From: Micrococcus luteus NCTC 2665
GTDB lineage: Bacteria > Actinomycetota > Actinomycetes > Actinomycetales > Micrococcaceae
Direction: 5' to 3'
DNA length: 32,000 bases
Assembly: GCF_000023205.1 (NCBI RefSeq)
Contig: NC_012803.1
Coordinates: forward strand, 1-32,000
In this document: one piece after another, positions 13,462-32,000 of the stretch
How the letters are laid out: every line of letters begins with the position of its first letter
Numbering within the stretch: position 1 is the stretch's first letter
Position numbers and translations under genes: made by a program
The notes under the pieces: model-generated
What the model saw: only the letters and a program-made list of their open reading frames with translations
Databases searched by the model: none
What the model was told of the DNA's origin: nothing

Positions 13462-13538
13462 AGCCGACTCGATATCGGAGCCTGCTGGGTAAGCCACGAA
13501 GGCCAAACAGGACTGCGCACCACGACCGAACCGGAGGT

Positions 13539-14350: not shown

Positions 14351-14368
14351 CGTCAGCGTCCCCTTCGG

Positions 14369-14815: not shown

Positions 14816-14902
14816 CGGAATCCCCTCCTGAAACGCGGCGTCCCCGGATCGGGATCGCTGGTGTCAGACAGGTGCACACCCCACCCCGGCGGGCGCGGCG
14901 GG

Positions 14903-18734: not shown

Positions 18735-19597
18735 AGCGACAACCCCCGCCCGACCGATCCTGAGGAGCGGGCCGGACCGGCGAACCAGTCCGGCTCCGCT
18801 CCCACCGGGACCTGCCTTGTCCGCGCGGACGCTGGCGTCACTGCGGTCCGGGGCGTGCTCGGATCGAGTGACCCGACGCCGCTGATGGCCTCACGCGCTG
18901 TCGCAACGTCGGTCTCGTCCAGGCCCGGGTCGGGTAGGGCGCCGGGGTGTGCCCGGAGCAGATTGATGTGCCCCATGAACGGGTTGTAGGTGAGCGTGTA
19001 GTCGCCGTCCGTGACGACCCGGTCGAGCTGCCCGGTGGGTGGTTCGTCGTAGACGTACCCGTTCTCCAGTGCCGCGTCGGTGGTCTCGTCCCCGTAGTCC
19101 CAGTTCTTCAGGTGCTCGATGGCGGCGTCGGGGCCGTCGCGGCCGATGAGGTCGAGCACTTCGTCGGCTTCTGAGCCTTGGAGGAAGACGACGCTGAGCC
19201 AGCGCCGCGATGCTTCCGTGGACACTGCTTCCCGGTCGACCTCCTGCGCTGGGGCGTGCCAGGCGATGCGTCCGGAATGGATCATCGCGGCATTGACTCG
19301 CTCCTCGACTCCATCGAGGAGCGTTCCGGCGTGGTGCAGGTCGTCTGCGGCCGCGAGGGCTTCGGAGGCACCGATCGCTTGGTCACCGTCATCGTCGTGA
19401 GCGCGGCCGCGATGAACGAGATGCGTGGAGCCGACCTGATCGAGTACCTGGCGCAGCGACCGGATGCCCGAGAGGAGGTCGCCGAGCACGCTGTAGGTGT
19501 CGGCAGGGTTGTCGAAGGTACGGCTGGCGTGCGCGAGCCCGCGCAGCGCCTCGGATGCTTCGCCAGCATCCTGGAGTGGGTCGTGATACGTGGGCAT
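18731..19597 (-). CDS. Hypothetical protein (288 aa)
   Basis: The ATG at 19597 lies 3 nt after the aggaggccg RBS (19601-19609). ATGA overlap with the VirB4-like start. No TM segment or known motif recognised. Confidence 0.65.
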   Translation of the reverse strand: MPTYHDPLQDAGEASEALRGLAHASRTFDNPADTYSVLGDLLSGIRSLRQVLDQVGSTHLVHRGRAHDDDGDQAIGASEALAAADDLHHAGTLLDGVEERVNAAMIHSGRIAWHAPAQEVDREAVSTEASRRWLSVVFLQGSEADEVLDLIGRDGPDAAIEHLKNWDYGDETTDAALENGYVYDEPPTGQLDRVVTDGDYTLTYNPFMGHINLLRAHPGALPDPGLDETDVATAREAISGVGSLDPSTPRTAVTPASARTRQVPVGAEPDWFAGPARSSGSVGRGLSL

Positions 19598-19700
19598 GAG
19601 CGGCCTCCTGTGACAAGCGCGAAGCCCCGGGCATCGGGGTCGACTGTCAGGTGCACGCGCGCCCACACGCCGCGAGGACCGGGGTGTGTGTGCGGGGCGG

Positions 19701-21164
19701 TCAGATGCGGCGGCACAGGGGCAGGGCGGCGGCGGTGAACGCGGCCGCCTGTTGTCCGACGAGCAGCCGGGTTTCACAGGAGGCTTGGATCGCGGCCTGC
19801 TCAATTGCCGCGACACCGGCCTCCAGCTCCTCGACGCTGGGTGCGGAGACGCTGATGAGGCCGGTGAACCGCAGCACCCCGTGGCCGGCGGTCAGGTCCG
19901 CCTCCTGCTGGAGTACGTCGTGGTACTCGGCGGTCTGGGTGGCGTCTTCGATCTGCCCGATCTTCGCCCGCTGAGCGGCGTCGGAGATGTGCTCGACCTT
20001 CTTCTTGCGGATGTCCCGGGCGGCTTGGTCCGAACGCATCGGCGTGCACAGCAGCGAGAACGAGCGTTGGATGCCGGTGGACAGCAGCACCGGGGACAGG
20101 AACCCGGGGTAGACCATCGAGCGCGGCCACTCGCTGATCCACAGCACCGCGTGGTGGGCGGAGTCGGTGCGCAGGCGGCCCCAGGACTCGTTGACGGCGA
20201 CGGGACCGGCGGTAGCCAGGTGCTGGCCGAGTTCGCCGTGGCGCTCCAGGGTCGCGGCGATCGCCGGGTCATACGCGCTGCGCAGGATCACCGCGATCTG
20301 TCCCGGGCTCAGCCATCCCGCGGGCTTCAGGTCGGCTGAGCGCAGCGCCGCGGTGAGGGTTGACATTTCTTGGCGCAGGACGGCGGCGGCCCCGCGGATG
20401 CCGCCACCGGCGGTCCTGATCTGCCGGGCAGCGGTCTTCATATCCAGCGACAGGGACAGGGTGGTGGCGTGTCGTTCCCCGGCCGGCCCGGCACGCTCGA
20501 TGAGTTCGGCATAGGTGGTTGCGGCCCAGCTGTCGTCGGCGGTGCCGTGGGAGGCCCACCATTCAGCGAGCCCGGTACCGGAGTCCGACAGCGTCCGTTC
20601 CAGGACTTGCAGTGTAGCGATTCGTCCGGAGCGGCACACCGTGGCCAGCACGCGGCCCCAGGAGGTGACGCGGCGTTCCTGCTCGCCCGGGTCCAGGAGC
20701 ACGAACGCGGGATGGGTCACCTCGCAGACCACGGTGAGGGTCGCGGCGTGGGGGTCGTGGATCATCCCGGCCCCGGTGTCGGTGTCGGTGTACTCGCGCA
20801 GTCGCGCCATGTCACCGGGCAGCGCGAGCGTCCCGGCCGGCCGGGGTGCCACGATGCGGCGCCGATAGAGAAGTTGCCCGCAGGTGCTGCGCCACAGCCA
20901 CCAGCACGCGACCGGTAGCCATTCCACGGCCGGGCGTCCGGCGACGGGTACCCAGGTCAGGGCGGCGGCGAGCACCCAGACGGGTGCGGTGTAGGCCAGC
21001 AGGATGCCACCGCCGGCATAGAGGGCGCCGACGACGGCGAGGACGCCGGTGGCGAGGGTGATGAGCTGGGCCAGGGACAGGCCGAGGAGGATGCCGCGAC
21101 GGGTGAGCCGGGAGAACTTGACCGGCACCAGCTCGGTGGAGGACTCCTTCTGCTTCGTGGTCAT
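19701..21164 (-). CDS. Conjugation membrane protein (resembles the SCO6880 family of actinobacterial T4SS clusters, from memory)
   Basis: The start was trimmed to the ATG at 21164 (MTTKQKESSTELVPVKFSRLTRRGILLG). It has two N-terminal TM helices followed by a soluble domain of about 400 aa. Confidence 0.75.
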   Translation of the reverse strand: MTTKQKESSTELVPVKFSRLTRRGILLGLSLAQLITLATGVLAVVGALYAGGGILLAYTAPVWVLAAALTWVPVAGRPAVEWLPVACWWLWRSTCGQLLYRRRIVAPRPAGTLALPGDMARLREYTDTDTGAGMIHDPHAATLTVVCEVTHPAFVLLDPGEQERRVTSWGRVLATVCRSGRIATLQVLERTLSDSGTGLAEWWASHGTADDSWAATTYAELIERAGPAGERHATTLSLSLDMKTAARQIRTAGGGIRGAAAVLRQEMSTLTAALRSADLKPAGWLSPGQIAVILRSAYDPAIAATLERHGELGQHLATAGPVAVNESWGRLRTDSAHHAVLWISEWPRSMVYPGFLSPVLLSTGIQRSFSLLCTPMRSDQAARDIRKKKVEHISDAAQRAKIGQIEDATQTAEYHDVLQQEADLTAGHGVLRFTGLISVSAPSVEELEAGVAAIEQAAIQASCETRLLVGQQAAAFTAAALPLCRRI

Positions 21165-21171
21165 GGCCGTC

Positions 21172-22650
21172 TCAGTCCTTCCCGGTCGGCTTCGGTGCCG
21201 GCGGCGGGGCCGGCTTCGGCGCAGGTGGCGCCGGTTGTGAGGGACCCGCCGACGGCGTCTTCGGCTCAGCAGGAGACGGAGCCTTCGTGGTCGGTGCGGA
21301 TGACGTCCGGGACGCCGCAGGAGGGGGTGTGGCGCCGGTCTGCCCGGCACTGTCGGCGGCGGCCTCGCCCTGGTTCCCGAGGGCCGTGCCGGCCTTCGGA
21401 CCGGCGGTCGCCGCGTCCTTGGCGACCTTCGCCGCGATGACCGCCGCTGCGGCAGGACCAGCCGCAGCAGCACCCCCACTCGCCGTACCCGCGCCGGCAC
21501 CACCACTTGCTCCTGCGCCGGCTCCGGCGGACCCACCCGCGGTGCCGGCGCCTCCGGCAGCACTCGCCCCGCCCCCGGATGCCTGGGGTGCGGAGGTCTT
21601 TGGCTGGGGCGGCGTCTTCCCTCCGGCTCCACTGCCGCCTCCGCCACCGCTCTCGTTGCCGCCGCTATTGCCGCCGTCGAGGACCTTCTGGGGGCCGTCG
21701 CCGGCTGGTTTCGTCGGGGTGGGGACGGGCCGGTTGAGGGCCTGTTTGGCGTCTTGTTCGGAGCCGATCGCGTGGTACATGTCGAACCCGATGAAGCTGA
21801 TGAACTTGTAGGTCAGGTAGGGGGCGAACGCGGCCATCGCCATCAGCACGATCCCCGCCAGCGGGTCACTGATCGAGGTCAGGTCCGCATCGATCGGTGC
21901 CGAAACCTGGGTGATGGCGACCAGGAACATCAAGACCAGGACGAGCTTGGAGCAGATCAGCGCGATGACGAACATCGCCCACTTGCCGATCCACCCCCTG
22001 CTGGCGTCCCACGACGCACCGGAGAACGCCAGGGGTGCGAACACGATCGCCACCAGCAACAGCGCCTTGCGCACGAGCAGCGACAGCCACACGATCGCGG
22101 CAGCGGCGATCGCCAAGCCGGCGAGGAAGATCGTGATGATCGCCCCCACCCCGGGGGCGGCGATGTTGATCCCGACCAGGCCCGCGGCGAGGAGGGTGAT
22201 CTTGTCGCCCATGGACGCGGTGGTTTCCCCGGCAGCCTGGATGACCCCGACACAGAGCTGGTCGACGATCTCCAGCAGCAACGCCGTCAGCGTGATCACC
22301 ACGAACGAGCCGAGCACGGACTTCGCCAACCCGAGGGCGGCCCGAGACAGGGCGGTGGGGTCGCGGCGGATCAGGCCGGTGAGCAGTTGGAGGCAGAAGA
22401 AGATCAGCATCACGAACACGGCGATGCCGAACAGCAGGTTGTAGACCGCCACATACTCGGGCCGGGTGACGTCGACGAGCGTGGTGGTGTCGAACACGGA
22501 CCACACTGCCTCGAACAGCCAGCCGGCGGCAGCGCCCATCGCTTGGGCGAGCCAGTCGAACGGTGCCGCCACCAGGGACGCGGCGGCTTCGCCGGCGGTG
22601 TCGCACACGGCCGAGATGACGGGGATATCGCATACTCCCACCGCAATCAC
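21172..22650 (-). CDS. VirB6/TrbL-like polytopic membrane protein with a Gly/Ala/Pro-rich tail
   Basis: 492 aa with at least 6 predicted TM helices in residues 1-300. Residues from about 305 to 492 are low complexity. The start is uncertain: the GTG at 22650 abuts the AGGAG, while the GTG at 22641 has better spacing. Confidence 0.75.
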   Translation of the reverse strand: MIAVGVCDIPVISAVCDTAGEAAASLVAAPFDWLAQAMGAAAGWLFEAVWSVFDTTTLVDVTRPEYVAVYNLLFGIAVFVMLIFFCLQLLTGLIRRDPTALSRAALGLAKSVLGSFVVITLTALLLEIVDQLCVGVIQAAGETTASMGDKITLLAAGLVGINIAAPGVGAIITIFLAGLAIAAAAIVWLSLLVRKALLLVAIVFAPLAFSGASWDASRGWIGKWAMFVIALICSKLVLVLMFLVAITQVSAPIDADLTSISDPLAGIVLMAMAAFAPYLTYKFISFIGFDMYHAIGSEQDAKQALNRPVPTPTKPAGDGPQKVLDGGNSGGNESGGGGGSGAGGKTPPQPKTSAPQASGGGASAAGGAGTAGGSAGAGAGASGGAGAGTASGGAAAAGPAAAAVIAAKVAKDAATAGPKAGTALGNQGEAAADSAGQTGATPPPAASRTSSAPTTKAPSPAEPKTPSAGPSQPAPPAPKPAPPPAPKPTGKD

Positions 22651-22678
22651 TCCTTCGGGATCGAGTCAGCGGTTGGTG

Positions 22679-23017
22679 TCAGACCTGTTGGCCGACGTCC
22701 CAGAAGAAGTTGATCAACGTCACGCTGGCGCCGCAGATCACCGCGGCTCCGCAGCTCACGAGGACGCCCATCTTTCCGCGGCCGGCGAGGTGGGGGTTGG
22801 AGGAGTTCGCGCCGAAGCCCCACACGATCGCGGAGATGATCAGCGCGAGCACCGACAGGATCAGGCCGACGGTCATCACCGCGCCGACGATCGTGCGCAG
22901 CTGGGCGATGCCCGGTAGACCGGAATCGTTGGGGGTGATGTCGACATCCATCGGCACCAGCACGGGCAGCGCGGCGAGTGTGGTGGCGGCGTCGGTGATC
23001 AGGGTCAGGGCGTTCAT
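22679..23017 (-). CDS. Small two-TM membrane protein, VirB2/TrbC pilin-like (paralog 1)
   Basis: 112 aa with a strong RBS (aaggag, 8-nt spacer, ATG at 23017). A 22-aa hydrophobic leader precedes a core that aligns with paralog 2. Confidence 0.7.
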   Translation of the reverse strand: MNALTLITDAATTLAALPVLVPMDVDITPNDSGLPGIAQLRTIVGAVMTVGLILSVLALIISAIVWGFGANSSNPHLAGRGKMGVLVSCGAAVICGASVTLINFFWDVGQQV

Positions 23018-23098
23018 GGCGGGTGCTCCTTAGGCAAGCGAGGACAGGGGTTCTCGCTGTTCAGGTGCACGGCTGTCACCAGTTCGTAGGATGGTCAG

Positions 23099-23701
23099 GT
23101 GGAGATCGAGACGGTGCGGGCTGCGTACGCGCGACGTGCCGGTGAGTACATCGCCCGACTCGGGTCTATCGATGCCACGGCGCTAGCAGATCAGGACTTG
23201 ATCAACGCGTGGGGGCGTAGTGTCCATGGGCCTGTCCTGGACGTCGGGTGCGGACCCGGTCACTGGGCAAGCTTCCTGAACCAGACCGGTGTCAAGGTAA
23301 CGGGGATCGATCCGGTGCCTGAGTTCATCGACGACGCCCGCGCCCGGTTCCCGGACGTCGCCTTTCGGGTTGGACGGGCCGAGGCCCTCGACGTGTACGA
23401 CGCCAGCGTGGGCGGCATCCTGGCGTGGTACTCACTGATTCACACCGACCCGTCACAGCTGACTGCGGTGTTCGGCGAGTTTGCCCGGGTGCTGCGACCC
23501 GGCGGCAGCATTCTGGTGGGCTTCTTCGCCGGTGTGGACCTGACCCGGTTCGACCACGCGGTGACCACCGCCTACTTTTGGCCCCCGCACATGCTCAGCG
23601 CGGTGATCGAGGACGCAGGTTTCAGTGTGATTGCCTCGCATACGCGGACCGACCCCGGGCGCGCGCATGGTGACGTCAAAGCCCACCGTCTCCGGTGGTG
23701 A
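23099..23701 (+). CDS. Class I SAM-dependent methyltransferase (small-molecule type)
   Basis: 200 aa with motif I VLDVGCGPGHW, post-I TGIDP and motif II/III region GGILAWYSLIH...LRPGGSILV. It is the only + strand gene inside the ICE. Confidence 0.85.
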   Translation: MEIETVRAAYARRAGEYIARLGSIDATALADQDLINAWGRSVHGPVLDVGCGPGHWASFLNQTGVKVTGIDPVPEFIDDARARFPDVAFRVGRAEALDVYDASVGGILAWYSLIHTDPSQLTAVFGEFARVLRPGGSILVGFFAGVDLTRFDHAVTTAYFWPPHMLSAVIEDAGFSVIASHTRTDPGRAHGDVKAHRLRW

Positions 23702-23704
23702 CGC

Positions 23705-23971
23705 TTACATCGTCTGGCCGAGGTCGATGAGCCAGTTCATCCACGCCACTCCGGCACCGGCCAGGATCGCGGTGCCGAGGGCGACGAGGACACCGGTGCG
23801 GCCCTTCCCTGCTGCACTGTAGTTGCCGTTCGCGGCGGCGATGGCCCAGATGATGGCGGAGACGATCAGCATCAGGACGCTGGTGATGAGCACGAACGTC
23901 AGCAGCGCGCCGATCACTGCGCGCAGGTCATCGATCCCGCCGATCCCGCCGAAGTCAGGGAACACGTCCAT
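23705..23971 (-). CDS. Small two-TM membrane protein, VirB2/TrbC pilin-like (paralog 2)
   Basis: The start was trimmed to the ATG at 23971 (MDVFPDFGGIGGIDDLRAVIGALLTF). 88 aa, aligning along its whole length with residues 23-112 of paralog 1. Confidence 0.7.
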   Translation of the reverse strand: MDVFPDFGGIGGIDDLRAVIGALLTFVLITSVLMLIVSAIIWAIAAANGNYSAAGKGRTGVLVALGTAILAGAGVAWMNWLIDLGQTM

Positions 23972-23976
23972 GCCGC

Positions 23977-25641
23977 TCAGCTCCCGGACCGGGCGGTGAC
24001 GTGGAGGTGGTCGTAGTGGCCGCCGGTGACGTCGCCGGGGTCGTGCATGCCGCCGCCGTTGTAGTCGCGCCATCCTTCGGCGTCGCGGGAGAGGGACCAG
24101 ATCTTGCCCTGCCAGATGAGGTATTCGACCCCGAGGGTTTCGGCGTGGTCTTTCATCCAATTGGTGATGTCCCAGCCGGCTTCGAGCTGCGCTGGTGTGG
24201 GGTGCTGGCCGATGGCGTTGCCGAAGGTCAGATCGCAGGCCCGGCCGAGCGGGTGTTCGGAGCGGGTGCCGGGACGGGGCGAGTAGCAGGCCCAGGAGGT
24301 GTCAGGGAAGGCGGCAGTGCCCTGCTGGTATAGGTGCAGCATCCGAGCGGTGATCTGTCCGTCGCTGGTGGGGTCATCCACGAGGCGGTCCGGATCACCG
24401 TCGAGGGGGTCGGGCTGCCCGCCCGGAGTGCTGGTGTCGGGGTCGCAGCCGGCCGGGGCGCCGGTCTCGGGTTCGGGGAGGTCAGCAGCATCATGGGCGT
24501 TGAGCCAGGCGGCGGGGTCGATGTGCTCACCGTCGGTGCCGCCGGTACGGACCTCGAAATGCAGATGCGGCCCGGTGCTGTTGCCGGAGGAGCCAATGTC
24601 GCCGATGTGCTGGCCAGCGGTGACAGTGTCGCCGGGTTGGACGTGGATGCCGGTCTCCCACATGTGCCCGTACGCGGTCGCAAAGGTCTGCCCGTCGAGG
24701 GTGTGTTCGATGACGATGAGCCCGCCGTAGCCGCCGGAGAACTCGGCGACGGTGACGGTGCCATCGGCCGCCGCGAGGATCGGGGTGCCGTCCGGGGCGG
24801 CGAAGTCGGTGCCGGTGTGGAACGAACTCTCCCCGGAGATCGGATGGACCCGCGGTCCGTACTCGCTGGTCAGCACCCAGGTGCCCTCGGGCACCGGGAA
24901 CACCACCCGTGAAGACTCCGCCACCGCCTGAACCGCTGGAGCCACGGTGTCGTCGGTCGACATCCCCGCAGTGACTGCGTCGGCTGTTGCGGTGGTGCCG
25001 GTGAGGGTGGTCAGGATGGTCTCGGCGACGGGCTCGTAGTTGCGGTACCGGTCGGGGTAGGCGGACACCTCGACGGCTTGGGCAGCTTCGCCCTTGTCCA
25101 TCTGCTCCCAGCCGGGGACGTCCAACAGGCCCCGCGGTGAGGGGTGGTTGGGGCCGGTGGGTCCGCCGAAGAACGCCTGCGCCTGATACGTCGGGTCCAT
25201 CAGCTCGGCGACGGTGCCCCACCCGGACTGCGGCCGCATCTGAAACAACCCCAGGGAATCGTGGTCGGAGCCGTCGCCATCGTTGGGAAAGTCCGCCGAC
25301 TCCGGATAGACGCTCGTGTTGGACAGCATCCGCAGGGTGGATTCGGTCAGCGCCGCCATCAGCGCAATCACCAGCCCGTCCCGGGTCACCCCGTCGATGC
25401 TCGTGTCGGTCTCGATGATCGTCGCCGCATGCGTGAGCTGCTGCCGGTTCAGGGTGAAGGTCTCGCCGTTGGCGGTCGTGACGGTGAGTTCGTCGGGGAC
25501 GTCGCCGACCGTGACGCTTGTGCCGGCCACGGTGCAGGAGGCTGAGGCGGCAGGGTTCATCACCACCCCGACCCCGACCAGCACCAGCGACGGCGCCAGG
25601 AACACCAGCGCGAGAGCGGCGAGGGCGAGCTTCTTCACCAT
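23977..25641 (-). CDS. Secreted multi-domain peptidoglycan hydrolase (SLT-like, M23 and LAS/M15-like domains)
   Basis: 554 aa with a signal peptide (MVKKLALAALALVFLAPSLV). Transglycosylase-like ES and GLFQM motifs, M23 motifs HTGTD and HLHFE, and C-terminal H-x6-D (EHPLGRACD) and HxH (DHLHV) motifs. GGAGG RBS. Confidence 0.88.
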   Translation of the reverse strand: MVKKLALAALALVFLAPSLVLVGVGVVMNPAASASCTVAGTSVTVGDVPDELTVTTANGETFTLNRQQLTHAATIIETDTSIDGVTRDGLVIALMAALTESTLRMLSNTSVYPESADFPNDGDGSDHDSLGLFQMRPQSGWGTVAELMDPTYQAQAFFGGPTGPNHPSPRGLLDVPGWEQMDKGEAAQAVEVSAYPDRYRNYEPVAETILTTLTGTTATADAVTAGMSTDDTVAPAVQAVAESSRVVFPVPEGTWVLTSEYGPRVHPISGESSFHTGTDFAAPDGTPILAAADGTVTVAEFSGGYGGLIVIEHTLDGQTFATAYGHMWETGIHVQPGDTVTAGQHIGDIGSSGNSTGPHLHFEVRTGGTDGEHIDPAAWLNAHDAADLPEPETGAPAGCDPDTSTPGGQPDPLDGDPDRLVDDPTSDGQITARMLHLYQQGTAAFPDTSWACYSPRPGTRSEHPLGRACDLTFGNAIGQHPTPAQLEAGWDITNWMKDHAETLGVEYLIWQGKIWSLSRDAEGWRDYNGGGMHDPGDVTGGHYDHLHVTARSGS

Positions 25642-25656
25642 GAGCGCACCTCCGGC

Positions 25657-26355
25657 CTATCGGAGGGGGTTGTCGAGCTGGGACAACCGCAGCAGGTGGC
25701 AGGTGTCGTAGGTCGGGCCGCAGACGAGGAACACGGTGAACGTCACCGGATGCTCGGAGGTGACGCTCTCGTCGTTCCAGAGGCCGGTGCGGTGGCGGGT
25801 GCCCTCGATCGTGTAGGCGATGGTGCCCTCGGCGAGCTGACCGGGTTGCGCCTGTTCGAGGGCCGCATCCCAGGCATCGGGCACATAGGCGTCGTCGATG
25901 GTCAGGTGCTGGGCGGTGGCGTAGTGGCGCAGCTCGATCCAGGCGTCCCGGTTCGGCAGGTAGGTGGTGATGTCGGAGGCGAGCCCGGCCTGCTCGGCAC
26001 CCGAGGGGTCGCCGATGGCGAGGATGACCGAGGTGTAGTCCAGGGGCATGAACCCGCTGGCCGTGTCCCAGGCGAATAGCGCCGTCGCGACGTTGCGGGC
26101 GAAGGTCTCCGGATCGGCCGAGGTCCGCACCGTCGGCAGACGTGGTGTCGCGGTCGGGGCCGGATCGCCGGGCGCCGGATCGCTGGGTGCAGTCACAGCC
26201 GGCCCAGACCCGGAGGCGTCCTCGTTGGTGGTGGGTGGTCCGGTGAGGAGGCCGTAGACGCCGACACCGGCCAGCACCAGGACCGCCACGAGGGCGGCGA
26301 GTACGGCGATCAGCCGATGACGGGAACGCGGGGCAGACAGGTCGAGAGTCTTCAT
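25657..26355 (-). CDS. Membrane-anchored hypothetical protein
   Basis: ATG at 26355 (MKTLDLSAPRSRHRLIAVLAALVAVLVLAGVGV). It has a single N-terminal TM helix, a Pro-rich linker and a globular C-terminal domain. An alternative GTG start lies at 26376. Confidence 0.65.
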   Translation of the reverse strand: MKTLDLSAPRSRHRLIAVLAALVAVLVLAGVGVYGLLTGPPTTNEDASGSGPAVTAPSDPAPGDPAPTATPRLPTVRTSADPETFARNVATALFAWDTASGFMPLDYTSVILAIGDPSGAEQAGLASDITTYLPNRDAWIELRHYATAQHLTIDDAYVPDAWDAALEQAQPGQLAEGTIAYTIEGTRHRTGLWNDESVTSEHPVTFTVFLVCGPTYDTCHLLRLSQLDNPLR

Positions 26356-26394
26356 ACCCCGTAGGCGCACGACCACGCCCCGCCCTTGGTGCGG

Positions 26395-27405
26395 TTAGAG
26401 GGCGCGCAGGTGCCCCCGTGCGGGGGTTTCGTGGCCTGCGCGGCGGTCGCGGGCGGTCCGCAGTTCCTCGGCGAACCTGCTGGTGCCCTCAACCGTGGTC
26501 AGGAAGGACTCGATCTGCTCATCGGTGAGTTCGGCGACGAGCTGGTCGGCGTCGTAGTGGGTCCACCAGTCGATCAGTTCGGTCCAGGTCAGCACGAACG
26601 CCCGCACCGGATATTGCGCCGGCTCACCGGCGTCGTCGGGTGTTCCTGCGGGTCGAGGGACGCGCTTCTTCGCTTTCGCGTTCTTGGCGCGGGTGAGGGC
26701 ATCGGCGGCGAGCTGGTGCAGGTCCGCCTCGCGGTGGTTCCTGGCGGTCTCGGCGAGGTCGTGGATGTGCCGGTAGATCGGATCGACGGCGGCACCGGCG
26801 TCGATCCGCTCCAGCTCACCGGCCACGTATTGGCGTAGCTCGGTCGGCTGGGCGGTGTCGTCGGCAAGCTGCTGGAGGTAGCCGATCTTGTCCAGCGTGG
26901 TGTGGGACGCACTCCCGGGGACCATCGCCGCCGCCTGCTCCCGGGTCTTCCCGGAGGCGCCTGGTGACGGTGGTGCAAAATTTGCACCACCGTCACTTCC
27001 AGGCTGATTCTCCGCACTGAACCGGGCCGCGGCTTGCCTGCGGGCGGCGTCTTCGGCCATCAGCGCCTTCAGCTCCCGGTAGAGGGCGGCGGCTTCGGTC
27101 TGGGTCAGGGGTTTGTGCAGGACGTTGTCGTCCTGCTCGGCCAGGAGGTGACCGAGCCGGTCGGAGATGCCCGAGCGGACCCACACGTTGACGGTCTTCC
27201 AGCCGAGCTGCCTGATCGCTGTCAGCCTGCGGGCCCCGCACACGAGCACGCCTTCGGGGGTGATGGTGATGGGCTGCAACAGTCCGTCGCGGTCGATGGA
27301 GACAGCTAGTTCGTCGATGTCGCCTAGCTCGGTGCGGTGTCGGTGCCCGACCTGGATCGAGGCGACGGTGCGTTCCAGCTCGATGGACCCCGCCGGCGCG
27401 CTCAT
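26395..27405 (-). CDS. ParB-like N-terminal domain protein (orphan; no ParA in the window)
   Basis: 336 aa. ParB/Srx motifs GLLQPITI and VCGARRLTAIRQLG, the latter similar to the GERRxRA arginine patch. ATGA overlap with the upstream gene. Confidence 0.85.
   Translation of the reverse strand: MSAPAGSIELERTVASIQVGHRHRTELGDIDELAVSIDRDGLLQPITITPEGVLVCGARRLTAIRQLGWKTVNVWVRSGISDRLGHLLAEQDDNVLHKPLTQTEAAALYRELKALMAEDAARRQAAARFSAENQPGSDGGANFAPPSPGASGKTREQAAAMVPGSASHTTLDKIGYLQQLADDTAQPTELRQYVAGELERIDAGAAVDPIYRHIHDLAETARNHREADLHQLAADALTRAKNAKAKKRVPRPAGTPDDAGEPAQYPVRAFVLTWTELIDWWTHYDADQLVAELTDEQIESFLTTVEGTSRFAEELRTARDRRAGHETPARGHLRAL
26964..26996. repeat. 33-bp perfect palindrome (16-bp arms, 1-nt centre) inside the ParB-like CDS
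   Basis: gtgacggtggtgcaaa a tttgcaccaccgtcac, with an AT-rich centre AAAATTT in GC-rich DNA. It encodes the linker peptide SDGGANFAPPSP. Confidence 0.95.
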
Positions 27406-28301
27406 CGCGACCCGCCCCCACGGGGATTCCGGTTGTGGTGGGCGGGTGCGGCCAGGGAGATGGTGAGCACGAGGTCATCGTCGCGCAGCAGCACCGGCAG
27501 GCTCTCGCCGATCAGCAGCCGTAGCAGCACGCCGCGTCCCGTGGTCGTGGCGGCGTAGGCGGGGTGTGGGTTGCCCAGCAGGGCCCGGAGCAGTGCTGTC
27601 CAGGAGTGGCTGGGGATGTCGAGGAGGGCGCGGGCGTGCTTGTCGCGGCGCAGTGCCTCGTAGGTGGCCTGGCGGGTGCCGGTCTTGGTCAGTGCCCCGC
27701 AAACGTGCTCGATGCTGGCCCGCGCGGTGGCCGGGGGCCAGTCCAGCAGGGTGAAAAACGCGATCGCGTCCTCGACGGCCGAGCCCGCCGACGTGCGCGC
27801 CCGCGATGACGCTGGCGCGCCGTCGTTCTCCTCATCCGTGGGCTGGGTGTCATCGGTGATCTGGAATGCGGGGTGGTAGTCGGCCAGCGGGTTCTCCCGG
27901 TCGGAGAAGCGTTCGGGGTCGTGGAACGCCGAGATGTGCGGGCGCCGGGCTTGGTGGACCGAGCACAGGAGTCCTTGGGCGCGTTCTTCGAAGATGCAGG
28001 TGATCCGTACCGCGTGGGTGATCACCGCCCACGGATCAATCGCCGTGCGGGCCGCTGTGGTGCGCATCACGTCGAACGCCGCGCTGGCGGCCTCCCACGG
28101 GTCAAGGCCATGCTTATGCGCCAGTGGCGCGTACTTCTCCGCCGCGTAGGCCATCAGTTCCGCGGCGGTGGGGTCGTGCTTCCACGCGGTCGTCCCGGCA
28201 GCGTGGAGCCGGTTGAGCAGGGAGCGCAGGCCTTCGCTGGTCGCGAAGTCCTCGCCGGTCTCGGTCGTCTGTTCTCTGGTGGTGTGGGTGTTCTCGGTCA
28301 T
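27402..28301 (-). CDS. Hypothetical protein (299 aa)
   Basis: The ATG at 28301 lies 10 nt after AGGAGG, and the stop overlaps the ParB-like start. No recognisable domain. Confidence 0.65.
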   Translation of the reverse strand: MTENTHTTREQTTETGEDFATSEGLRSLLNRLHAAGTTAWKHDPTAAELMAYAAEKYAPLAHKHGLDPWEAASAAFDVMRTTAARTAIDPWAVITHAVRITCIFEERAQGLLCSVHQARRPHISAFHDPERFSDRENPLADYHPAFQITDDTQPTDEENDGAPASSRARTSAGSAVEDAIAFFTLLDWPPATARASIEHVCGALTKTGTRQATYEALRRDKHARALLDIPSHSWTALLRALLGNPHPAYAATTTGRGVLLRLLIGESLPVLLRDDDLVLTISLAAPAHHNRNPRGGGSR

Positions 28302-28401
28302 GGTTGGGGCACCTCCTGACAGGCAGGTGCGCACGCCGTCCCCAACGACGACGTTTGCGCTGCCTGCCTCGGCGGTGCTCATGACCTCTCACCTGCTCAG
28401 C

Positions 28402-28836
28402 TCATCCGACCGGCGACCGCGACGGAACGGACTCGGTTGTCCTGCTGCGGCCGAAGGCCGACAGCGGCGGCAACCGGCGCGCCCGCTCACCAACCCCCCG
28501 CACACCGGTGTTCGTGGCGGTGCGGGTGCGGCGAGCCAACTCGACCTCGAAGTCGATGCCCCGCCCCGCCAATGCCGCACCGTGGCGGGCGAGCAGGTCC
28601 GTGGGCCGCACCCACTCCACCCCCCGCGCACGCAGGCCCGCATCCTGGGCGAGCCGCTCACGGGTGTTGCCCCGGAGACCAGCGATCCTCGCCGCTTGCA
28701 CTGCCTCTGGTGTCTCCGTCTTCTCGGCTGGCGGTGTCTCGACCTGCTCGGCTGGCGTCGACGGCGGGTGGCCGGTCTCCGGCACCGGCGGTCGCCGGTG
28801 AGGTTCCTGCTGCTGGTGGTCGTGATCGGGATTCAT
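28402..28836 (-). CDS. Hypothetical protein (144 aa), Pro/His/Gln-rich N-terminus
   Basis: The ATG at 28836 forms an ATGA overlap with the upstream DUF2637-HTH gene stop. No recognisable domain. Confidence 0.55.
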   Translation of the reverse strand: MNPDHDHQQQEPHRRPPVPETGHPPSTPAEQVETPPAEKTETPEAVQAARIAGLRGNTRERLAQDAGLRARGVEWVRPTDLLARHGAALAGRGIDFEVELARRTRTATNTGVRGVGERARRLPPLSAFGRSRTTESVPSRSPVG

Positions 28837-29651
28837 GCGTCCTTCGCCTCCTCGGCATCGACGTGTTCGGTGGTATCGGGAAGGTGCGCGCTGGTGAACC
28901 ACCGGCCCACCGTGGACGGGTGCACGCCCAGTTCCCGGGCGATCTTCTTGTTCGACCATCCCTGCCCGCGCAGCGCCGCCGCTCGCCCACGCCGGTCGGC
29001 GGAATCCGCAGCGGCATAGACCTGCGGCTCAGCGCGCCGGTCCGCTGATGCCTGCCTCGTGTCGGGAGTTGTGACGGGGTCGTTCTCCTGCGGGGTCGGC
29101 GCTGACAGCGCGGTGGCTTCCATGCCATCCGTTGGTGTCACCGCCGATACCGGCTCCCACGCTTCGTTCGGGCCGGGCTCCTCGATCGCTGCGGCTTCGA
29201 TCGCGGACTCGTCGGTGGATGTGGGCACCTCGGCGGCGGGTTGCGGGCGGGTGAGGATGACGGTCAGGTGGGTGATCGCCAGCAGCACCACTGGCGGCAC
29301 CGCCGCCACCGCCGCCGCCAGCACTCCGGGCACGTCGGCGTCGGCTGCCACCACGGCGTGGATCGCGTTGGCGGTCACCGACACGAGAGCGCCGCCGATC
29401 AGCAGCGCCCACGGATACCACGCCGACCGCTGGCCGGCCAGGGCGACGACGGCGACGGTGGCCACGACGATGATGCCGTCGACGATCAGCGGCCACGCCC
29501 ACGCCTGCGAGCCGCCGACCCCGGAGCGGGCGGCCAGGTCCGCCAACGCCGTGAACGACAGCCAGAACGCGCCGCCGGCGATGAACACCGTCCCGGCCAC
29601 CGCCGTGACCACCGCCCAACGTCGACTCGTCGGACTGCCAGGGACGGTCAT
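28833..29651 (-). CDS. DUF2637-like membrane protein fused to a C-terminal helix-turn-helix
   Basis: The ATG at 29651 forms an ATGA overlap with the Prim-Pol stop. It has about 4 TM helices (WAVVTAVAGTVFIAGGAFWLSF...), an acidic linker and an HTH (GWSNKKIARELGVHPSTVGRW). Confidence 0.75.
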   Translation of the reverse strand: MTVPGSPTSRRWAVVTAVAGTVFIAGGAFWLSFTALADLAARSGVGGSQAWAWPLIVDGIIVVATVAVVALAGQRSAWYPWALLIGGALVSVTANAIHAVVAADADVPGVLAAAVAAVPPVVLLAITHLTVILTRPQPAAEVPTSTDESAIEAAAIEEPGPNEAWEPVSAVTPTDGMEATALSAPTPQENDPVTTPDTRQASADRRAEPQVYAAADSADRRGRAAALRGQGWSNKKIARELGVHPSTVGRWFTSAHLPDTTEHVDAEEAKDA

Positions 29652-30592
29652 GACAGCCCCCGCATCGGAGCGGACGTCCGCACGGTCGCATCGCGAGCAA
29701 ACCACCCGTCCGCGGCTCGCGGCGAGCCCTGCACCGTCGATGAAGGGCGGGCTTGGCGTTGGGGGGTGCGGTAGGCCGAGCGGACGGTCGTCGTGATCTC
29801 CCGCTCGCCCAACCCCGATTCCGAGGCAGCGGCCGCGAGCACATCGAGCGCATCAGGGGCCGGGACACCGTTCTCGGCCAGTCGGCAGGCGGCCCAGAAC
29901 AGGCCCCGGTTCCGTTCCCCTTCGCCGCGGGCAGCGACCCACGCCACCAATCGCGACACATCCACGGACCGCACCACATCGTCGCCCGTCCTGGGCGGGA
30001 GCGTCGGGCGCGGGTCAAGGAAGTCCCGCAACCGGTCCGAATCCAGCGTCGCCGAGGGGCCGGTGTTGATCTGCCGCACCCGGTAGCCGACAGCTCCACC
30101 GTTGATGGACACCATCGAGGGTGGGAGGAGGATGTAGCCGCCACCGCCACGGAAGTCCACACCGGCACGCGCGGCCTGCCAGGACCGCTGCGCCCGGTCA
30201 GGTGTCGCCGGGTAGTAGGCGTGCATCCCACCCGACGGCGTGGACACCAGGAACGCCCACCCCGACACGAGGCCGGCACGGTGGGCGCGCTCGAACGCCT
30301 CGTACCCGTCGGTGGGGGCGTGGACATCGACGTCCACCACCACCATCCCGGAGGCGGCGCCGGTGGGGACAGCGAGGTTCGCATCCGGGTGCGTCCGCCA
30401 CCAGGCCTCCACCTGGCCAGGATCGGTGGTGGCGTCGTGGAAGCCATGCTCGGTGAGCGGACGCTTCCCGCCCGGCACGCACGGGAACACCGGCACGCCT
30501 GCGGCGGCGAGTTCTCGTGCTGCGGCGGAGGCCGGCCATGGCCCGGTCATCTGCGACAGCACACCCGCGAGCGCGTCCGTAGCGGCCATCAC
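29648..30592 (-). CDS. Bifunctional DNA primase/polymerase (Prim-Pol, AEP superfamily)
   Basis: 314 aa. Motifs are VFPCVPGGKRPL, the DxD motif VVVDVDVH, TPSGGMHAYY and GGGGYILLPPS. The start is GTG 30592 or ATG 30589, either of which overlaps the upstream stop. Confidence 0.85.
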   Translation of the reverse strand: MMAATDALAGVLSQMTGPWPASAAARELAAAGVPVFPCVPGGKRPLTEHGFHDATTDPGQVEAWWRTHPDANLAVPTGAASGMVVVDVDVHAPTDGYEAFERAHRAGLVSGWAFLVSTPSGGMHAYYPATPDRAQRSWQAARAGVDFRGGGGYILLPPSMVSINGGAVGYRVRQINTGPSATLDSDRLRDFLDPRPTLPPRTGDDVVRSVDVSRLVAWVAARGEGERNRGLFWAACRLAENGVPAPDALDVLAAAASESGLGEREITTTVRSAYRTPQRQARPSSTVQGSPRAADGWFARDATVRTSAPMRGLS

Positions 30593-30930
30593 AGATCCCG
30601 TCCCTGCATCACGGCCGCGCTGGCCACCGGTCGGGGACCCGTTTCGGGCACAGCCTCGACCTGCCTGCCCGACGCTGCGCGTTCGGGTGCTGAGCGCTCA
30701 TGGGATGGCTGGTTGCGCTGCGGCGTCTCACGGTCGAGCCCCGGTGGAGTGCCGTCACCGACCTGGGCGGTGTCGAGCTGATCGAGGATCGTCAGCGCCG
30801 TCTTGCGGACCCGCTCGCCGGTGGCCTTGACGATCTCGACCGGTTCCTTGCCGTCCACCCGCGCCGCCCAGGTCGACACGTACGGGATCGTGTACCCGGT
30901 CGTGTCCATGTGATGGGCGGCACCGATCAT
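30589..30930 (-). CDS. Hypothetical protein, first gene of the - strand array (113 aa, or 106 aa from the ATG at 30910)
   Basis: Its stop overlaps the Prim-Pol start, and GC3 is high in the first half. There is no obvious RBS. The putative IS256-family end lies about 10 nt upstream, so the N-terminus may not be native. Confidence 0.5.
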   Translation of the reverse strand: MIGAAHHMDTTGYTIPYVSTWAARVDGKEPVEIVKATGERVRKTALTILDQLDTAQVGDGTPPGLDRETPQRNQPSHERSAPERAASGRQVEAVPETGPRPVASAAVMQGRDL

Positions 30931-30940
30931 CAGCGCCACC

Positions 30941-32000
30941 GATAGTTGAGTCCCGCATAGTGGTGTAGCGCACGGTGACTGGGCACGTCGTTCCGGATGT
31001 GGACGCGGCCACCGTGTGATCCTTCGAGTCAACCTTCCACAGAATCCTCGAACGGAGTCATCACGATGACCGCTCCTCATATTGTCGACCCTGCCGGCCT
31101 GCTCGGCGAAGCCCTGTCCGAAGCATCCCCGGATTTGATGCGTTCGTTGCTGCAGACCGTGATCAACTCCCTGCTCTCCGCTGACGCCGACGCGGTGGTC
31201 GGCGCCGAATGGGGTAAACCCACCCCGGGCCGAGCTACCCAGCGCAACGGGTACCGGCACCGGGACCTGGACACCCGGGTCGGGACCCTGGACGTGGCGA
31301 TCCCCAAACTCAGGTCGGGCACGTACTTCCCGGAGTGGCTGCTCGAGCGCCGCAAAAGGGCCGAATCCGCGCTGATCACGGTGGTCGCCGACTGCTACCT
31401 GGCCGGGGTCTCGACCCGGCGGATGGACAAACTGGTCAAGACCCTCGGGATCAACGCGCTGTCGAAGTCCCAGGTCTCGCGGATGGCCACCGAGCTGGAC
31501 GAGCAGGTCGAGTCCTTCCGTCATCGCCCGCTCGGGGAGGCTGGGCCGTTCACGTTCGTGGCCGCCGACGCGCTGAGCATGAAGGTCCGCGAGGGCGGCC
31601 GGGTGGTCAACGCCGTGGTGCTGCTGGCCACCGGGGTCAATGGTGACGGCCACCGCGAGGTCCTCGGCCTGCGGGTGGCCACCTCGGAGACGGGGTCGGC
31701 GTGGAACGAGTTCTTCGCCGACCTGGTGGCCCGGGGCCTGACCGGAGTCCGCCTGGTCACTTCCGACGCCCACACCGGGCTCAAGGACGCCATCGCCGCG
31801 AACCTGCCCGGAGCGACCTGGCAGCGGTGCCGGACCCACTACGCGGCGAACCTGATGGGCATCACCCCCAAGTCCATGTGGCCGGCCGTGAAGGCCATGC
31901 TGCACTCGGTGTATGACCAGCCCGACGCCGCCAGCGTGGACGCCCAGTTCGACCGGCTGCTGGACTACGTCAGCGAAAAGCTGCCCGCGGTGGCCGAACA
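30941..32000 (+). mobile_element. IS256-family insertion sequence (partial; right end outside the window)
   Basis: It carries the transposase ORF listed below. The candidate left terminus gatagttgagtcccgcatagtggtgta at 30941 resembles my recollection of IS256 ends and lies 125 nt before the ATG. The boundary is unverified because the right inverted repeat is not in the window. Confidence 0.7.
31066..32000 (+). CDS. IS256-family (Mutator-like) transposase, 3-prime truncated by the window end
   Basis: Not in the ORF track because it has no stop in the window. My own translation from the ATG at 31066: MTAPHIVDPAGLLGEALSEASPDLMRSLLQTVINSLLSADADAVVGAEWGKPTPGRATQRNGYRHRDLDTRVGTLDVAIPKLRSGTYFPEWLLERRKRAESALITVVADCYLAGVSTRRMDKLVKTLGI...VTSDAHTGLKDAIA. 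This is a typical IS256 transposase N-terminus and DDE region. Confidence 0.9.
   Translation, partial: MTAPHIVDPAGLLGEALSEASPDLMRSLLQTVINSLLSADADAVVGAEWGKPTPGRATQRNGYRHRDLDTRVGTLDVAIPKLRSGTYFPEWLLERRKRAESALITVVADCYLAGVSTRRMDKLVKTLGINALSKSQVSRMATELDEQVESFRHRPLGEAGPFTFVAADALSMKVREGGRVVNAVVLLATGVNGDGHREVLGLRVATSETGSAWNEFFADLVARGLTGVRLVTSDAHTGLKDAIAANLPGATWQRCRTHYAANLMGITPKSMWPAVKAMLHSVYDQPDAASVDAQFDRLLDYVSEKLPAVAE

What the first reader, a model, noticed from the sequence alone, without database searches (positions are those of the whole stretch)
26964..26996. 33-bp perfect palindrome embedded in the ParB-like gene: candidate parS-like centromere or oriT
The sequence gtgacggtggtgcaaa-a-tttgcaccaccgtcac has 16-bp perfect arms around an AT-rich centre in GC-rich DNA. 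A chance perfect inverted repeat of this length in 32 kb is very unlikely. It lies in what looks like a low-complexity linker (GSDGGANFAPPSPGASG) between the ParB N-terminal domain and the C-terminal region, where protein constraint is weak, so the DNA or RNA symmetry may be the selected feature. ParB proteins bind palindromic parS sites, and a parS inside the parB gene has a precedent in B. subtilis spo0J. Inverted repeats next to a nick site are also typical of oriT, and no oriT or relaxase is otherwise visible here. I found no second copy or half-site in the window.
Basis: partly seen in the sequence, partly recalled or inferred. Interest (0 to 1): 0.75.

Follow-up and report, generated by a model that had tools for sequence, protein, structure and literature searches.

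The report
Self-encoded binding site in ParB-like gene
A perfect 33-bp DNA palindrome inside a ParB-like gene of a Micrococcus conjugative element is most likely the docking site for the protein that the same gene encodes; site and protein reading head have changed together across a large family of actinobacterial mobile elements, to the point that the DNA symmetry dictates the local amino-acid sequence.

Summary
The palindrome is real: 26964-26996, 16+1+16, perfect, chance expectation about 5e-4. It lies in a 336-aa ParB-family gene of an integrated T4SS conjugative element next to gyrA. A 14+1+14 core (26966-26994) is kept at the same codon register in 139 distinct homologous genes: 96 perfect, 28 with one mismatch. 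Nine of 15 pairs show double compensatory changes, synonymous sites are frozen, and rare A/T-ending codons are used. Relatives at 36-60% identity keep the geometry with unrelated arms. At least 63 of 127 deep representatives have peptides that could encode such a palindrome.

An unbiased mutual-information scan links arm positions 7-9 to residue 153 (G with K/R, C with D/E, T with I/V) and positions 11-13 to recognition-helix residues 168-173. These rules hold in deep lineages (p about 1e-8) and predicted four held-out loci.

Best reading: a parS/bisS/OB-like recognition site for the gene's own product, forming a compact, hypervariable specificity cassette.

"Centromere" is unproven because no ParA is present. 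"oriT" is unsupported but not excluded, because no relaxase is detectable. The "weakly constrained linker" premise is wrong.

Verdict: new variant of a known kind.

The parts
26964..26996 (.). 33-bp perfect palindrome (16+1+16) as present in this window
26966..26994 (.). 29-bp family-conserved core (14+1+14), GACGGTGGTGCAAA-W-TTTGCACCACCGTC. The dyad centre is the 3rd base of the Asn142 codon. The outer GACGG/CCGTC is near-invariant, and arm positions 6-13 are variable but symmetric.
   Evidence: 139 distinct genes: 96 perfect, 28 with 1 mismatch; for the reading frame
26395..27405 (-). ParB-family gene (336 aa) that contains the palindrome at codons 137-148
27061..27342 (-). Codons 22-115: ParB N-terminal (CTPase-type) domain, with invariant G57-x-R59-R60 and a D93-N94...H97-K98 box aligned to the GERR and ENLQRE boxes of Noc/ParB
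26878..26949 (-). Codons 153-176 (KTREQAAAMVPGSASHTTLDKIGY): predicted helix-turn-helix. K153 (26947-26949) covaries with arm positions 7-9. H168-T169-T170 (26896-26904) and K173 covary with arm positions 11-13.
   Evidence: (helices 153-160 and 168-182)
27402..28382 (-). Conserved 326-aa protein of unknown function. Its stop overlaps the ParB-like start (ATGA). It is syntenic with the ParB-like gene in the deep lineages examined and is a possible partner.
11645..31905 (-). Context: an integrated T4SS-type conjugative element, all genes on the minus strand: large serine recombinase, SSB, T4 coupling protein, VirB4-like, SCO6880/6881-family, DUF6112, M23 peptidase, ParB-like, DUF2637+HTH, Prim-Pol, ArdC-like. 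No recognisable relaxase or ParA.

Best explanation
The palindrome is the cognate recognition site of the ParB-family protein encoded by the same gene. It is the counterpart of parS, KorB's OB and BisD's bisS. Each 14-bp arm is read as duplex DNA by one subunit of a dimer. The recognition helix (residues 168-173) reads the dyad-proximal bases (arm positions 10-14). The N-cap of the first HTH helix (residue 153) reads positions 7-9. An unidentified, invariant part of the protein presumably reads the invariant outer GACGG.

The site sits in the codons just upstream of the HTH codons. Site and reader therefore form one cassette of about 120 nt that is inherited together. This cassette has diversified into many orthogonal specificities, and the DNA symmetry forces 'complementary' amino-acid pairs (G/P, A/A, V/T, D or E/S, N or K/F or L) onto the peptide.

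Inferred rather than shown: by analogy with ParB, KorB and BisD, the protein loads here as a CTP-gated clamp. It then either spreads or slides to regulate or mark the element (about 0.45), or acts as a roadblock within its own operon upstream of the T4SS genes.

Shown: nucleotide-level selection, symmetry and protein-DNA covariation. Not shown: binding, CTP use and phenotype.
For: (1) Conservation. The 14+1+14 palindrome is at the same codon register in 139 distinct genes at 60-100% identity: 96 perfect and 28 with one mismatch. 94.8% of cells are paired, against 33-51% for slid controls, and 9 of 15 pairs show double compensatory changes.

(2) Nucleotide-level selection. Synonymous entropy is 0-0.76 bit in codons 139-146, against a gene mean of 1.01. 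A/T-ending codons make up 72-94% there, against 15% gene-wide. Fully synonymous double changes occur (CCT/AGG to CCC/GGG). Another inverted repeat in the same gene is not conserved.

(3) Depth. Relatives at 60% and 36-50% identity keep the geometry and register with unrelated arms. 63 of 127 representatives that are mutually <50% identical could encode perfect arms of at least 12 bp at this place, against a background of about 1e-4 per position. Four such predictions were confirmed in DNA.

(4) Readout. Across all 336 residues, the top mutual-information partners of the arm bases are HTH residues. Position 11 pairs with residue 169 (normalised MI 1.0; C with T/A/S, G with K). Position 9 pairs with residue 153 (1.24 bit; T-K 56, G-R 18, C-D/E 35). 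Positions 12-13 pair with residues 163-173. Residue 153 shares at most 0.41 bit with any other third-codon position within 25 codons.

(5) The rules hold in deep lineages (Fisher p = 7.5e-9 and 6e-9) and predicted residue 153 correctly in 4 of 4 held-out loci. K/R with G, D/E with C and I/V with T match classical direct readout (established knowledge).

(6) Cassette. Gene pairs that differ by 1-5% elsewhere carry different, concordant site/HTH types. Their differences concentrate in codons 140-160, and also 168-172 when the core switches. Seven genomes with 2-3 elements always carry different types (P about 0.05-0.07).

(7) Family. The protein has a ParB_N domain with a GxRR box. The arms-plus-one-central-base layout is that of bisS (11+1+11, intragenic; PMC12409273) and OB (6+1+6; my knowledge).
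Against: There are no binding data. Pfam does not call the HTH and the AF2 model is poor (pLDDT 56), so the HTH rests on ParB architecture, predicted helices and the covariation itself.

The site and HTH codons are only 20-90 nt apart, so part of the covariation could reflect co-inheritance of a recombining segment. The Fisher tests are not phylogenetically corrected.

Symmetry is kept at all 14 arm positions, more than a typical HTH half-site. This hints at an extra constraint such as cruciform or hairpin formation. A hairpin stem is also a duplex copy of the half-site, so the covariation cannot tell linear from extruded DNA.

One lineage (GRA type) has stably kept a C.C mismatch.

No ParA, no second site and no obvious promoter lie nearby, so the downstream function is inferred only.
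Confidence: 0.75

Rival explanations
1. The palindrome acts as a single-stranded DNA hairpin or extruded cruciform in conjugative DNA processing. It would be an oriT-type recognition hairpin, or a single-strand initiation site for the element's Prim-Pol, possibly with the ParB-like protein as accessory factor or even as the nickase.
For: The element has a T4 coupling protein and a VirB4 but no detectable relaxase in Pfam, NCBIfam or PHROGs. Full-length perfect symmetry and an A/T-rich centre in 70% GC DNA favour extrusion. The hairpin is stable as ssDNA on both strands (about -24 kcal/mol, z about -7 to -8). Prim-Pol, SSB and an ArdC-like gene are in the element. No better inverted repeat was found in the intergenic regions. 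A hairpin stem would give the same protein-DNA covariation.
Against: The same register-locked palindrome occurs in a ParB-like gene next to a phage terminase, on a 99-kb phage-plasmid that PLSDB types as non-mobilizable and on which no relaxase or T4SS gene is annotated. Mismatches show no G.T wobble or strand bias: 5 A.C, 1 G.T and 6 transversion-type. Complementarity is kept up to the base next to the centre (pair 32-34: 47 A-T of 50), which cannot pair in a hairpin. The N-domain carries the GxRR clamp-type motif, and no nuclease-type motif was identified, although none was specifically searched for. No nic-like conserved flank was seen.
Confidence: 0.13
2. The selected feature is an mRNA hairpin inside the coding region. 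It would control translation, ribosome pausing or RNase III cleavage of the operon transcript.
For: Structure is conserved while sequence is not, as for structured RNAs. A 14-bp GC-rich stem would form in RNA. An mRNA structure that regulates ParB levels has been reported in Caulobacter, though at the 5' end of the transcript (10.64898/2026.07.07.737113).
Against: Only 3 G.U-type pairs are seen among the mismatches on the sense strand, 2 of them at the centre-adjacent position and 1 in the stem proper, against 6 A.C. Symmetry extends into what would be the loop. There is no Rfam family, only a sub-threshold miRNA-like hit. An RNA model does not predict base-specific covariation with HTH residues that follows K/R-G, D/E-C and I/V-T rules.
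Confidence: 0.05
3. There is no function. The palindrome arises from the conserved peptide (A-N-F-A is intrinsically near-palindromic in DNA) and is kept symmetric by templated quasi-palindrome correction during replication.
For: GCN-AAY-TTY-GCN is self-complementary by code. Template switching can copy a change from one arm to the other in one step (established knowledge), which may well be how the arms change together.
Against: Frozen synonymous sites and rare codons persist over saturated divergence. The 14+1+14 geometry is kept in lineages whose peptides differ completely. Covariation with residues outside the palindrome is strong. Another inverted repeat in the same gene decays.
Confidence: 0.03

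Closest known systems
BisD / bisS of ICEclc (Pseudomonas), a ParB-like CTP clamp that activates transfer-competence genes (PMC12409273)
   Same: An orphan ParB-family protein on an integrative conjugative element, with no ParA partner. A long perfect palindrome with one central base (11+1+11). Sites lie inside coding sequences. A GxxR CTP motif.
   Different: bisS lies in other genes (inrR, ssb) and in two copies, not in bisD itself. BisD has a C-terminal activator domain and the partner BisC. Here the site is single-copy, 14+1+14, and embedded just upstream of the protein's own HTH codons. The host phylum and the element family differ. No sequence similarity beyond the ParB N-domain was tested.
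KorB / OB operators of IncP plasmid RK2 (PMC11790492; details from my knowledge)
   Same: A ParB-CTPase family regulator of a conjugative element. An odd-length palindrome with a central base (6+1+6). In KorB, specificity is partly set by residues outside the recognition helix (Khare et al. 2004, my knowledge), as with residue 153 here.
   Different: KorB has 12 operator sites, mostly at promoters, and works with IncC (a ParA) and KorA. Here there is one intragenic site, no ParA and much longer arms.
Chromosomal ParB/Spo0J with a parS inside its own gene (B. subtilis spo0J; my knowledge, Lin and Grossman 1998)
   Same: The binding site of a ParB protein lies inside its own coding sequence, in a linker-coding segment.
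   Different: That parS is 16 bp, one of about 10 copies, lies after the DNA-binding domain, and is not reported to co-diversify with the protein. It belongs to a ParABS partition system.
Actinobacteriophage parABS systems with diverse specificities and incompatibility (Dedrick et al. 2016, cited in PMC12704722)
   Same: ParB/parS specificity diversifies among related mobile elements of Actinobacteria, with consequences for incompatibility.
   Different: Those are ParA-containing partition cassettes with arrays of parS sites outside parB (my knowledge). There is no double-coding site.
Phage small terminase / pac site inside the terS gene (P22, SPP1, P1; my knowledge)
   Same: A cis site embedded in the gene for the protein that recognises it, so site and reader are inherited together. 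One 36%-identical relative lies right after a large terminase gene.
   Different: A different protein fold and a different function (packaging initiation). pac sites are not long perfect palindromes.
HerB (YfjB), a leading-region ParB-like CTPase of F-like plasmids (PMC13370423)
   Same: An orphan ParB-CTPase plus HTH protein encoded by a conjugative element among early or leading-type genes.
   Different: HerB binds many chromosomal sites and reprograms the host. No self-encoded palindrome is reported.

Membership tests
ParB/Srx superfamily (ParB N-terminal domain) | Significant match to the ParB_N profile | tested here: met
   Pfam PF02195, 28 bits against a cutoff of 26.3, residues 22-78. 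NCBIfam parB_part and Noc at E about 6e-9. PDB profile hits to Noc/Spo0J/ParB N-domains at E 2e-4 to 8e-3. PHROG ParB-like at E 2e-20.
ParB-CTPase DNA clamps (ParB, Noc, KorB, VirB, BisD) | GxxR/GERR phosphate-binding box and ENxxR-type box III | tested here: met
   C56-G57-A-R59-R60 is invariant, and D93-N94...H97-K98 aligns to the E-N-L-Q-R-E of Noc. The catalytic Glu is Asp here.
ParB-CTPase DNA clamps | CTP binding/hydrolysis and site-stimulated clamp closure | not testable with these tools
   Needs biochemistry.
ParB-CTPase DNA clamps | HTH DNA-binding domain after the N-domain that reads a palindromic site | tested here: inconclusive
   Pfam gives no HTH hit. AF2 predicts helices 153-160 and 168-182, with pLDDT 85-90 only for the second. 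Strong base-residue covariation points to these helices.
parS/OB/bisS-type loading site | Dyad-symmetric site specific to its cognate protein | tested here: met
   A perfect 14+1+14 palindrome conserved in 139 genes, with arm bases covarying with HTH residues and correct prediction in 4 held-out loci. Physical binding was not tested.
ParABS partition system (centromere) | Adjacent ParA (Walker-type ATPase) partner | tested here: not met
   No ParA/CbiA/AAA_31 domain was found in the element ORFs that were scanned, namely the larger ORFs and the candidates judged real. The phage-plasmid relative has its ParA operon elsewhere, with another partner.
ParABS partition system (centromere) | Site stabilises a replicon in cis | not testable with these tools
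   Needs plasmid stability assays.
Conjugative oriT | Cognate relaxase encoded by the element | tested here: not met
   No relaxase family was found in Pfam, NCBIfam or PHROGs for any element ORF, nor in the related loci. A novel relaxase cannot be excluded.
Conjugative oriT | Conserved nic sequence beside the inverted repeat, with strand asymmetry | tested here: inconclusive
   The flanks are coding and conserved as protein. No asymmetric conserved motif was noticed and there is no wobble or strand bias. Nicking is not testable here.
Structured RNA (Rfam) | Match to a curated family at the gathering score | tested here: not met
   Only mir-671 at 27.7 bits against a gathering score of 65, which is spurious.

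The most novel reading that the evidence does not exclude
These widespread actinobacterial T4SS elements have no conventional relaxase. The ParB-like protein and its self-encoded palindrome would then be the element's DNA-processing start point: an oriT-equivalent at which a ParB/Srx-fold protein recognises (and possibly nicks) an extruded hairpin and hands the DNA to the coupling protein. The hypervariable site/HTH cassette would set transfer specificity and incompatibility between co-resident elements.
Probability: 0.1. Interest if true: 0.9.

Novelty: new variant of a known kind. Interest (0 to 1): 0.7.

Why it matters
Three reasons.

First, it assigns a concrete, testable cis site and specificity determinants to an uncharacterised ParB-family protein. 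That protein is conserved across a very large family of actinobacterial conjugative elements (10,646 profile hits), and the transfer biology of these elements, including their missing relaxase, is unknown.

Second, it is a clear natural case of overlapping codes. A protein-binding palindrome is written through a coding region, so DNA symmetry dictates complementary amino-acid pairs. As a result the site can be read from protein sequence alone.

Third, the many co-varying site/HTH variants form a natural recognition table (K/R with G, D/E with C, I/V with T, T/S against K/H/Q/R). This table could guide engineering of orthogonal ParB-type clamps and DNA labels. It could also explain how related elements coexist in one genome without cross-talk.

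Tried and rejected
- **Structure prediction.** AF2 on the 41-sequence alignment gave pLDDT 56. That is too poor for fold search, so no fold search was run.
- **HTH detection.** Pfam on the isolated post-palindrome segment found no HTH family.
- **The upstream 326-aa protein as a hidden relaxase.** Every source names it hypothetical, and it has no Pfam, PDB or PHROG match.
- **Wobble and strand-bias test to separate hairpin from duplex.** Too few events (5 A.C, 1 G.T, 6 other), so not significant.
- **Second inverted repeat in the gene (26776-26811).** Not conserved in the family, so treated as chance.
- **Extra copies or half-sites.** None within +-10 kb in 80 loci, none in a complete 99-kb replicon, and none in four deep loci.
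- **A CCTGG/CCAGG extension of the stem, suggested by folding.** It depends on Pro148 and is not conserved.
- **IMG/VR scan with the family alignment.** No relatives found.
- **Phage and plasmid relatives without the feature.** Staphylococcus phage 85 ORF013 and a Curtobacterium plasmid ParB-like gene have no palindrome at this place, so the feature is not universal in ParB_N+HTH proteins.
- **Co-residence test.** Only suggestive (P about 0.05-0.07).
- **Caulobacter parB 'dual-function element' preprint.** It concerns a 5' mRNA structure and is not this phenomenon.
Full report
**Observation**

The window has GTGACGGTGGTGCAAA-A-TTTGCACCACCGTCAC at 26964-26996, with 16-nt arms, perfect complementarity and one central base. 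It is the longest inverted repeat in the window. The analytic expectation for such a repeat is about 5e-4, and 60 dinucleotide-preserving shuffles never exceeded 13-nt arms. No other copy of the arm occurs in the 32 kb with up to 3 mismatches.

**Context**

The window carries gyrB, gyrA and a DUF3566 gene. An integrated element follows, with all genes on the minus strand:
- a large serine recombinase (11645-13408)
- an SSB
- a VirD4/TraG-type coupling protein
- a VirB4-like ATPase
- SCO6880- and SCO6881-family proteins
- a DUF6112 protein
- an M23 peptidase
- the ParB-like gene (26395-27405)
- a 326-aa unknown protein whose stop overlaps the ParB-like start
- a DUF2637+HTH protein
- a Prim-Pol/PriCT protein
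- an ArdC-like protein

The exact protein occurs in Micrococcus luteus. No relaxase and no ParA were found in Pfam, NCBIfam or PHROGs.

**The host protein**

Residues 22-78 match Pfam ParB_N above its gathering score. A family profile aligns residues 22-128 with the N-domains of Noc, Spo0J and ParB structures. That alignment includes the invariant G57-x-R59-R60 box and a D93-N94...H97-K98 box opposite ENLQRE. The palindrome encodes S137-P148. This stretch lies in an unstructured region that is followed by two predicted helices, 153-160 and 168-182 (low-confidence model). The position and sequence of these helices (GKTREQAAAM-x5-SHTTLDKIGYL) fit a helix-turn-helix, although Pfam does not call one.

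**The symmetry is selected at the nucleotide level**

I gathered 80 loci from species-representative genomes and 80 from metagenomes, which gave 139 distinct genes at 60-100% identity. A 14+1+14 core (26966-26994 here) lies at the same codon register in all of them: 96 are perfect, 28 have one mismatch, 12 have two and 3 have three.

On 50 distinct 48-nt segments, 94.8% of cells are paired. Shuffled partners give 79% and slid registers give 33-51%. Nine of 15 pairs show double compensatory changes, in 100 cells.

These changes alter the protein in complementary pairs. GGA..APP becomes GPA..AGP, GGG..PPP, GAG..PAP, GPG..PGP or GSA..ADP. Even the near-invariant outer pair changes as GAC..GTC to AAC..GTT, which turns D into N and S into L.

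Third codon positions pair with third positions, and fully synonymous double changes occur (CCT/GCA to CCC/GCG). Synonymous entropy in codons 139-146 is 0-0.76 bit, against a gene mean of 1.01 and 1.5-1.8 in the flanking codons. A/T-ending codons are 72-94% there, against 15% gene-wide. A second inverted repeat in the same gene (26776-26811) is not conserved, which serves as an internal negative control.

**Depth**

- A 60%-identical homologue on a Microbacterium plasmid has ATGGTCCCGCCGA-T-TCGGCGGGACCAT at the same codons.
- A 36%-identical homologue on a 99-kb Streptomyces phage-plasmid, just after the large terminase gene, has a perfect 14+1+14 palindrome GCCACTTCCGCCAA-C-TTGGCGGAAGTGGC, centred on the third base of the equivalent Asn codon.
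- Two viral-contig relatives of that gene have different arms again.
- A Mycobacterium prophage ParB-like gene has only an imperfect 28-bp palindrome at that place.
- Staphylococcus phage 85 and a Curtobacterium plasmid have none.

In this register a palindrome forces complementary amino-acid pairs, so I could test proteins alone. An exhaustive profile search found 10,646 family members, and the best 150 listed are mutually <50% identical. Of the 127 that cover the region, 63 could encode perfect arms of at least 12 bp exactly there, and most of the others are one mismatch away. Only about 1 in 10,000 other positions reaches 11. In a separate Nocardioides-rich clade, 91 of 120 proteins could do so. 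DNA for four of these confirmed real palindromes, each single-copy in its locus, with synteny preserved (Prim-Pol ... unknown - ParB-like - ~220 aa - cell-wall hydrolase - DUF6112).

**Who reads it**

I ran a mutual-information scan between variable arm positions and all protein columns outside the palindrome codons, using 116 sequences below 97% identity. The top hits were HTH residues:
- Position 11 with residue 169: normalised MI 1.0, C with T/A/S in 70 sequences and G with K in 46.
- Position 11 with residue 168: H or Y.
- Position 9 with residue 153: 1.24 bit, with T-K 56, G-R 18, C-D/E 35, T-R 4, T-I/V 2 and C-R 1.
- Positions 12-13 with residues 163-173.

As a linkage control, residue 153 shares at most 0.41 bit with any other third-codon position within 25 codons, including its neighbours. 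Residue 169 shares at most 0.43.

The synonymous CCT-to-CCC change goes with I/V-to-D/E in two separate clades. In the deep representatives:
- Codon c0-1 as A against G, versus residue 169 as T/S against K/H/Q/R, gives 18/3 against 0/21 (p = 7.5e-9).
- Codon c0-2 as G against non-G, versus residue 153 as basic against acidic, gives 28/2 against 4/20 (p = 6e-9).

The rule predicted residue 153 in all four held-out loci. K/R with G, D/E with C and I/V with T are the classical direct-readout preferences (established knowledge). The layout fits an HTH docked on a half-site, with the recognition helix at the dyad-proximal bases and the N-cap of the first HTH helix about 4-6 bp further out.

**A specificity cassette**

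Genes that differ by only 1-5% outside residues 128-190 carry different but internally concordant site/HTH combinations. Their nucleotide differences pile up in codons 140-160, and in 168-172 when the core switches: 10-13 per 10 codons against 0-3 elsewhere. Seven genomes with two or three such elements always carry different types, which is suggestive only (P about 0.05-0.07).

**Duplex site or hairpin**

A perfect palindrome necessarily folds as ssDNA (about -24 kcal/mol on either strand), and a hairpin stem is a duplex copy of the half-site. The covariation alone therefore cannot separate the two forms.

Four observations favour a linear dyad site bound by a dimer:
- Complementarity runs right up to the base beside the centre.
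- The arms-plus-one-base layout is shared with bisS and OB.
- Mismatches show no wobble or strand bias (low power).
- The feature occurs in a phage-plasmid that PLSDB types as non-mobilizable and on which no relaxase or T4SS gene is annotated.

Two observations leave room for an extruded form: symmetry is kept at all 14 positions, and the centre is A/T-rich.

**Comparison with known systems**

The nearest characterised system is BisD/bisS of ICEclc. BisD is an orphan ParB-like CTP clamp on an ICE that loads at 11+1+11 palindromes inside genes and activates transfer genes (PMC12409273). KorB/OB (PMC11790492) and HerB/YfjB (PMC13370423) are further ParB-CTPase regulators of conjugative elements. 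A parS inside spo0J and pac sites inside terS are precedents for a site within the gene of its reader (my knowledge).

I found no description of a register-locked, family-wide palindrome embedded just upstream of the HTH codons and co-diversifying with them. Only open-access literature was searched.

**Verdict**

- The 'parS-like' reading is supported by comparative evidence.
- 'Centromere' is unproven, because no ParA is present.
- 'oriT' is unsupported but not excluded, because the element's relaxase is unknown.
- The 'weakly constrained linker' premise is wrong.
- Confidence that this is the cognate site of the gene's own product is about 0.75.
- Confidence that it works as a CTP-gated clamp-loading site with a regulatory or marking role is about 0.45.
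- Novelty: new variant of a known kind.
- Interest: 0.7.

Noticed in passing
window 11300-32000: The integrated conjugative element has a coupling protein, VirB4, SSB, Prim-Pol and an ArdC-like gene, but no recognisable relaxase in Pfam, NCBIfam or PHROGs. The same holds for related loci. How this widespread element family nicks and transfers its DNA is open.
   Followed up: partly
window 27402-28382 (-): A 326-aa protein is translationally coupled to the ParB-like gene (ATGA overlap). Homologues are widespread (1,472 hits), and a protein of similar size sits directly upstream of the ParB-like gene in the deep loci examined. Every source calls it hypothetical, and it has no Pfam, PDB or PHROG match. 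It is a candidate partner, in the way that KorA and BisC are partners.
   Followed up: partly
L083/L168 (NZ_CP108279.1, 47416-48312): A 36%-identical ParB-like gene with its own 14+1+14 palindrome lies directly after a phage large-terminase gene, on a 99-kb Streptomyces phage-plasmid. That replicon has a separate ParA operon (100-1652) and also a DUF2637 gene. This raises the possibility of a packaging-related or other non-partition role.
   Followed up: partly
L085 (Mycobacterium phage prophiGD57-2, gene 13) and L084 (Staphylococcus phage 85, ORF013/ORF016): Prophages carry pairs of adjacent ParB-like genes right after the repressor/cro region. The mycobacterial one has an imperfect 28-bp palindrome (12 pairs, 2 mismatches) at the pre-HTH position. 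The staphylococcal one has none.
   Followed up: partly
window 26776-26811: A second inverted repeat in the ParB-like gene (17-nt arms, 88%) overlaps the conserved ERIDAGA.V.PI motif. It is not conserved in the family (typically 8-10 of 17 pairs), so it is probably chance.
   Followed up: yes
window 26955-27005: In this window the stem can extend by a CCTGG/CCAGG pair across a 3-nt bulge. This depends on Pro148 and is absent from most relatives.
   Followed up: yes
window 11253-11290: A GC-rich inverted repeat (16-nt arms, 94%) lies just after the DUF3566 gene, at the chromosome/element junction. It may be a terminator, or it may relate to the serine-recombinase attachment site.
   Followed up: no
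window 2428-5451 and 4000-6000: A 1007-aa minus-strand ORF has no Pfam match, and a stretch of unusually high GC (77%) lies upstream of gyrB. The gene calls here are ambiguous.
   Followed up: no
P0197; L076, L080: Near-identical copies of element genes appear in assemblies labelled Bacillus subtilis, Hyphomicrobiales and Chthonomonadales. This could be contamination, mis-binning or cross-phylum transfer.
   Followed up: no
L012, L018, L032, L035, L094, L096: The 'GRA' lineage has stably kept one C.C mismatch at arm position 7 (GGGCGT.. against ..CCCCC) together with Arg153. It is an asymmetric site that has persisted across diverged genomes.
   Followed up: no
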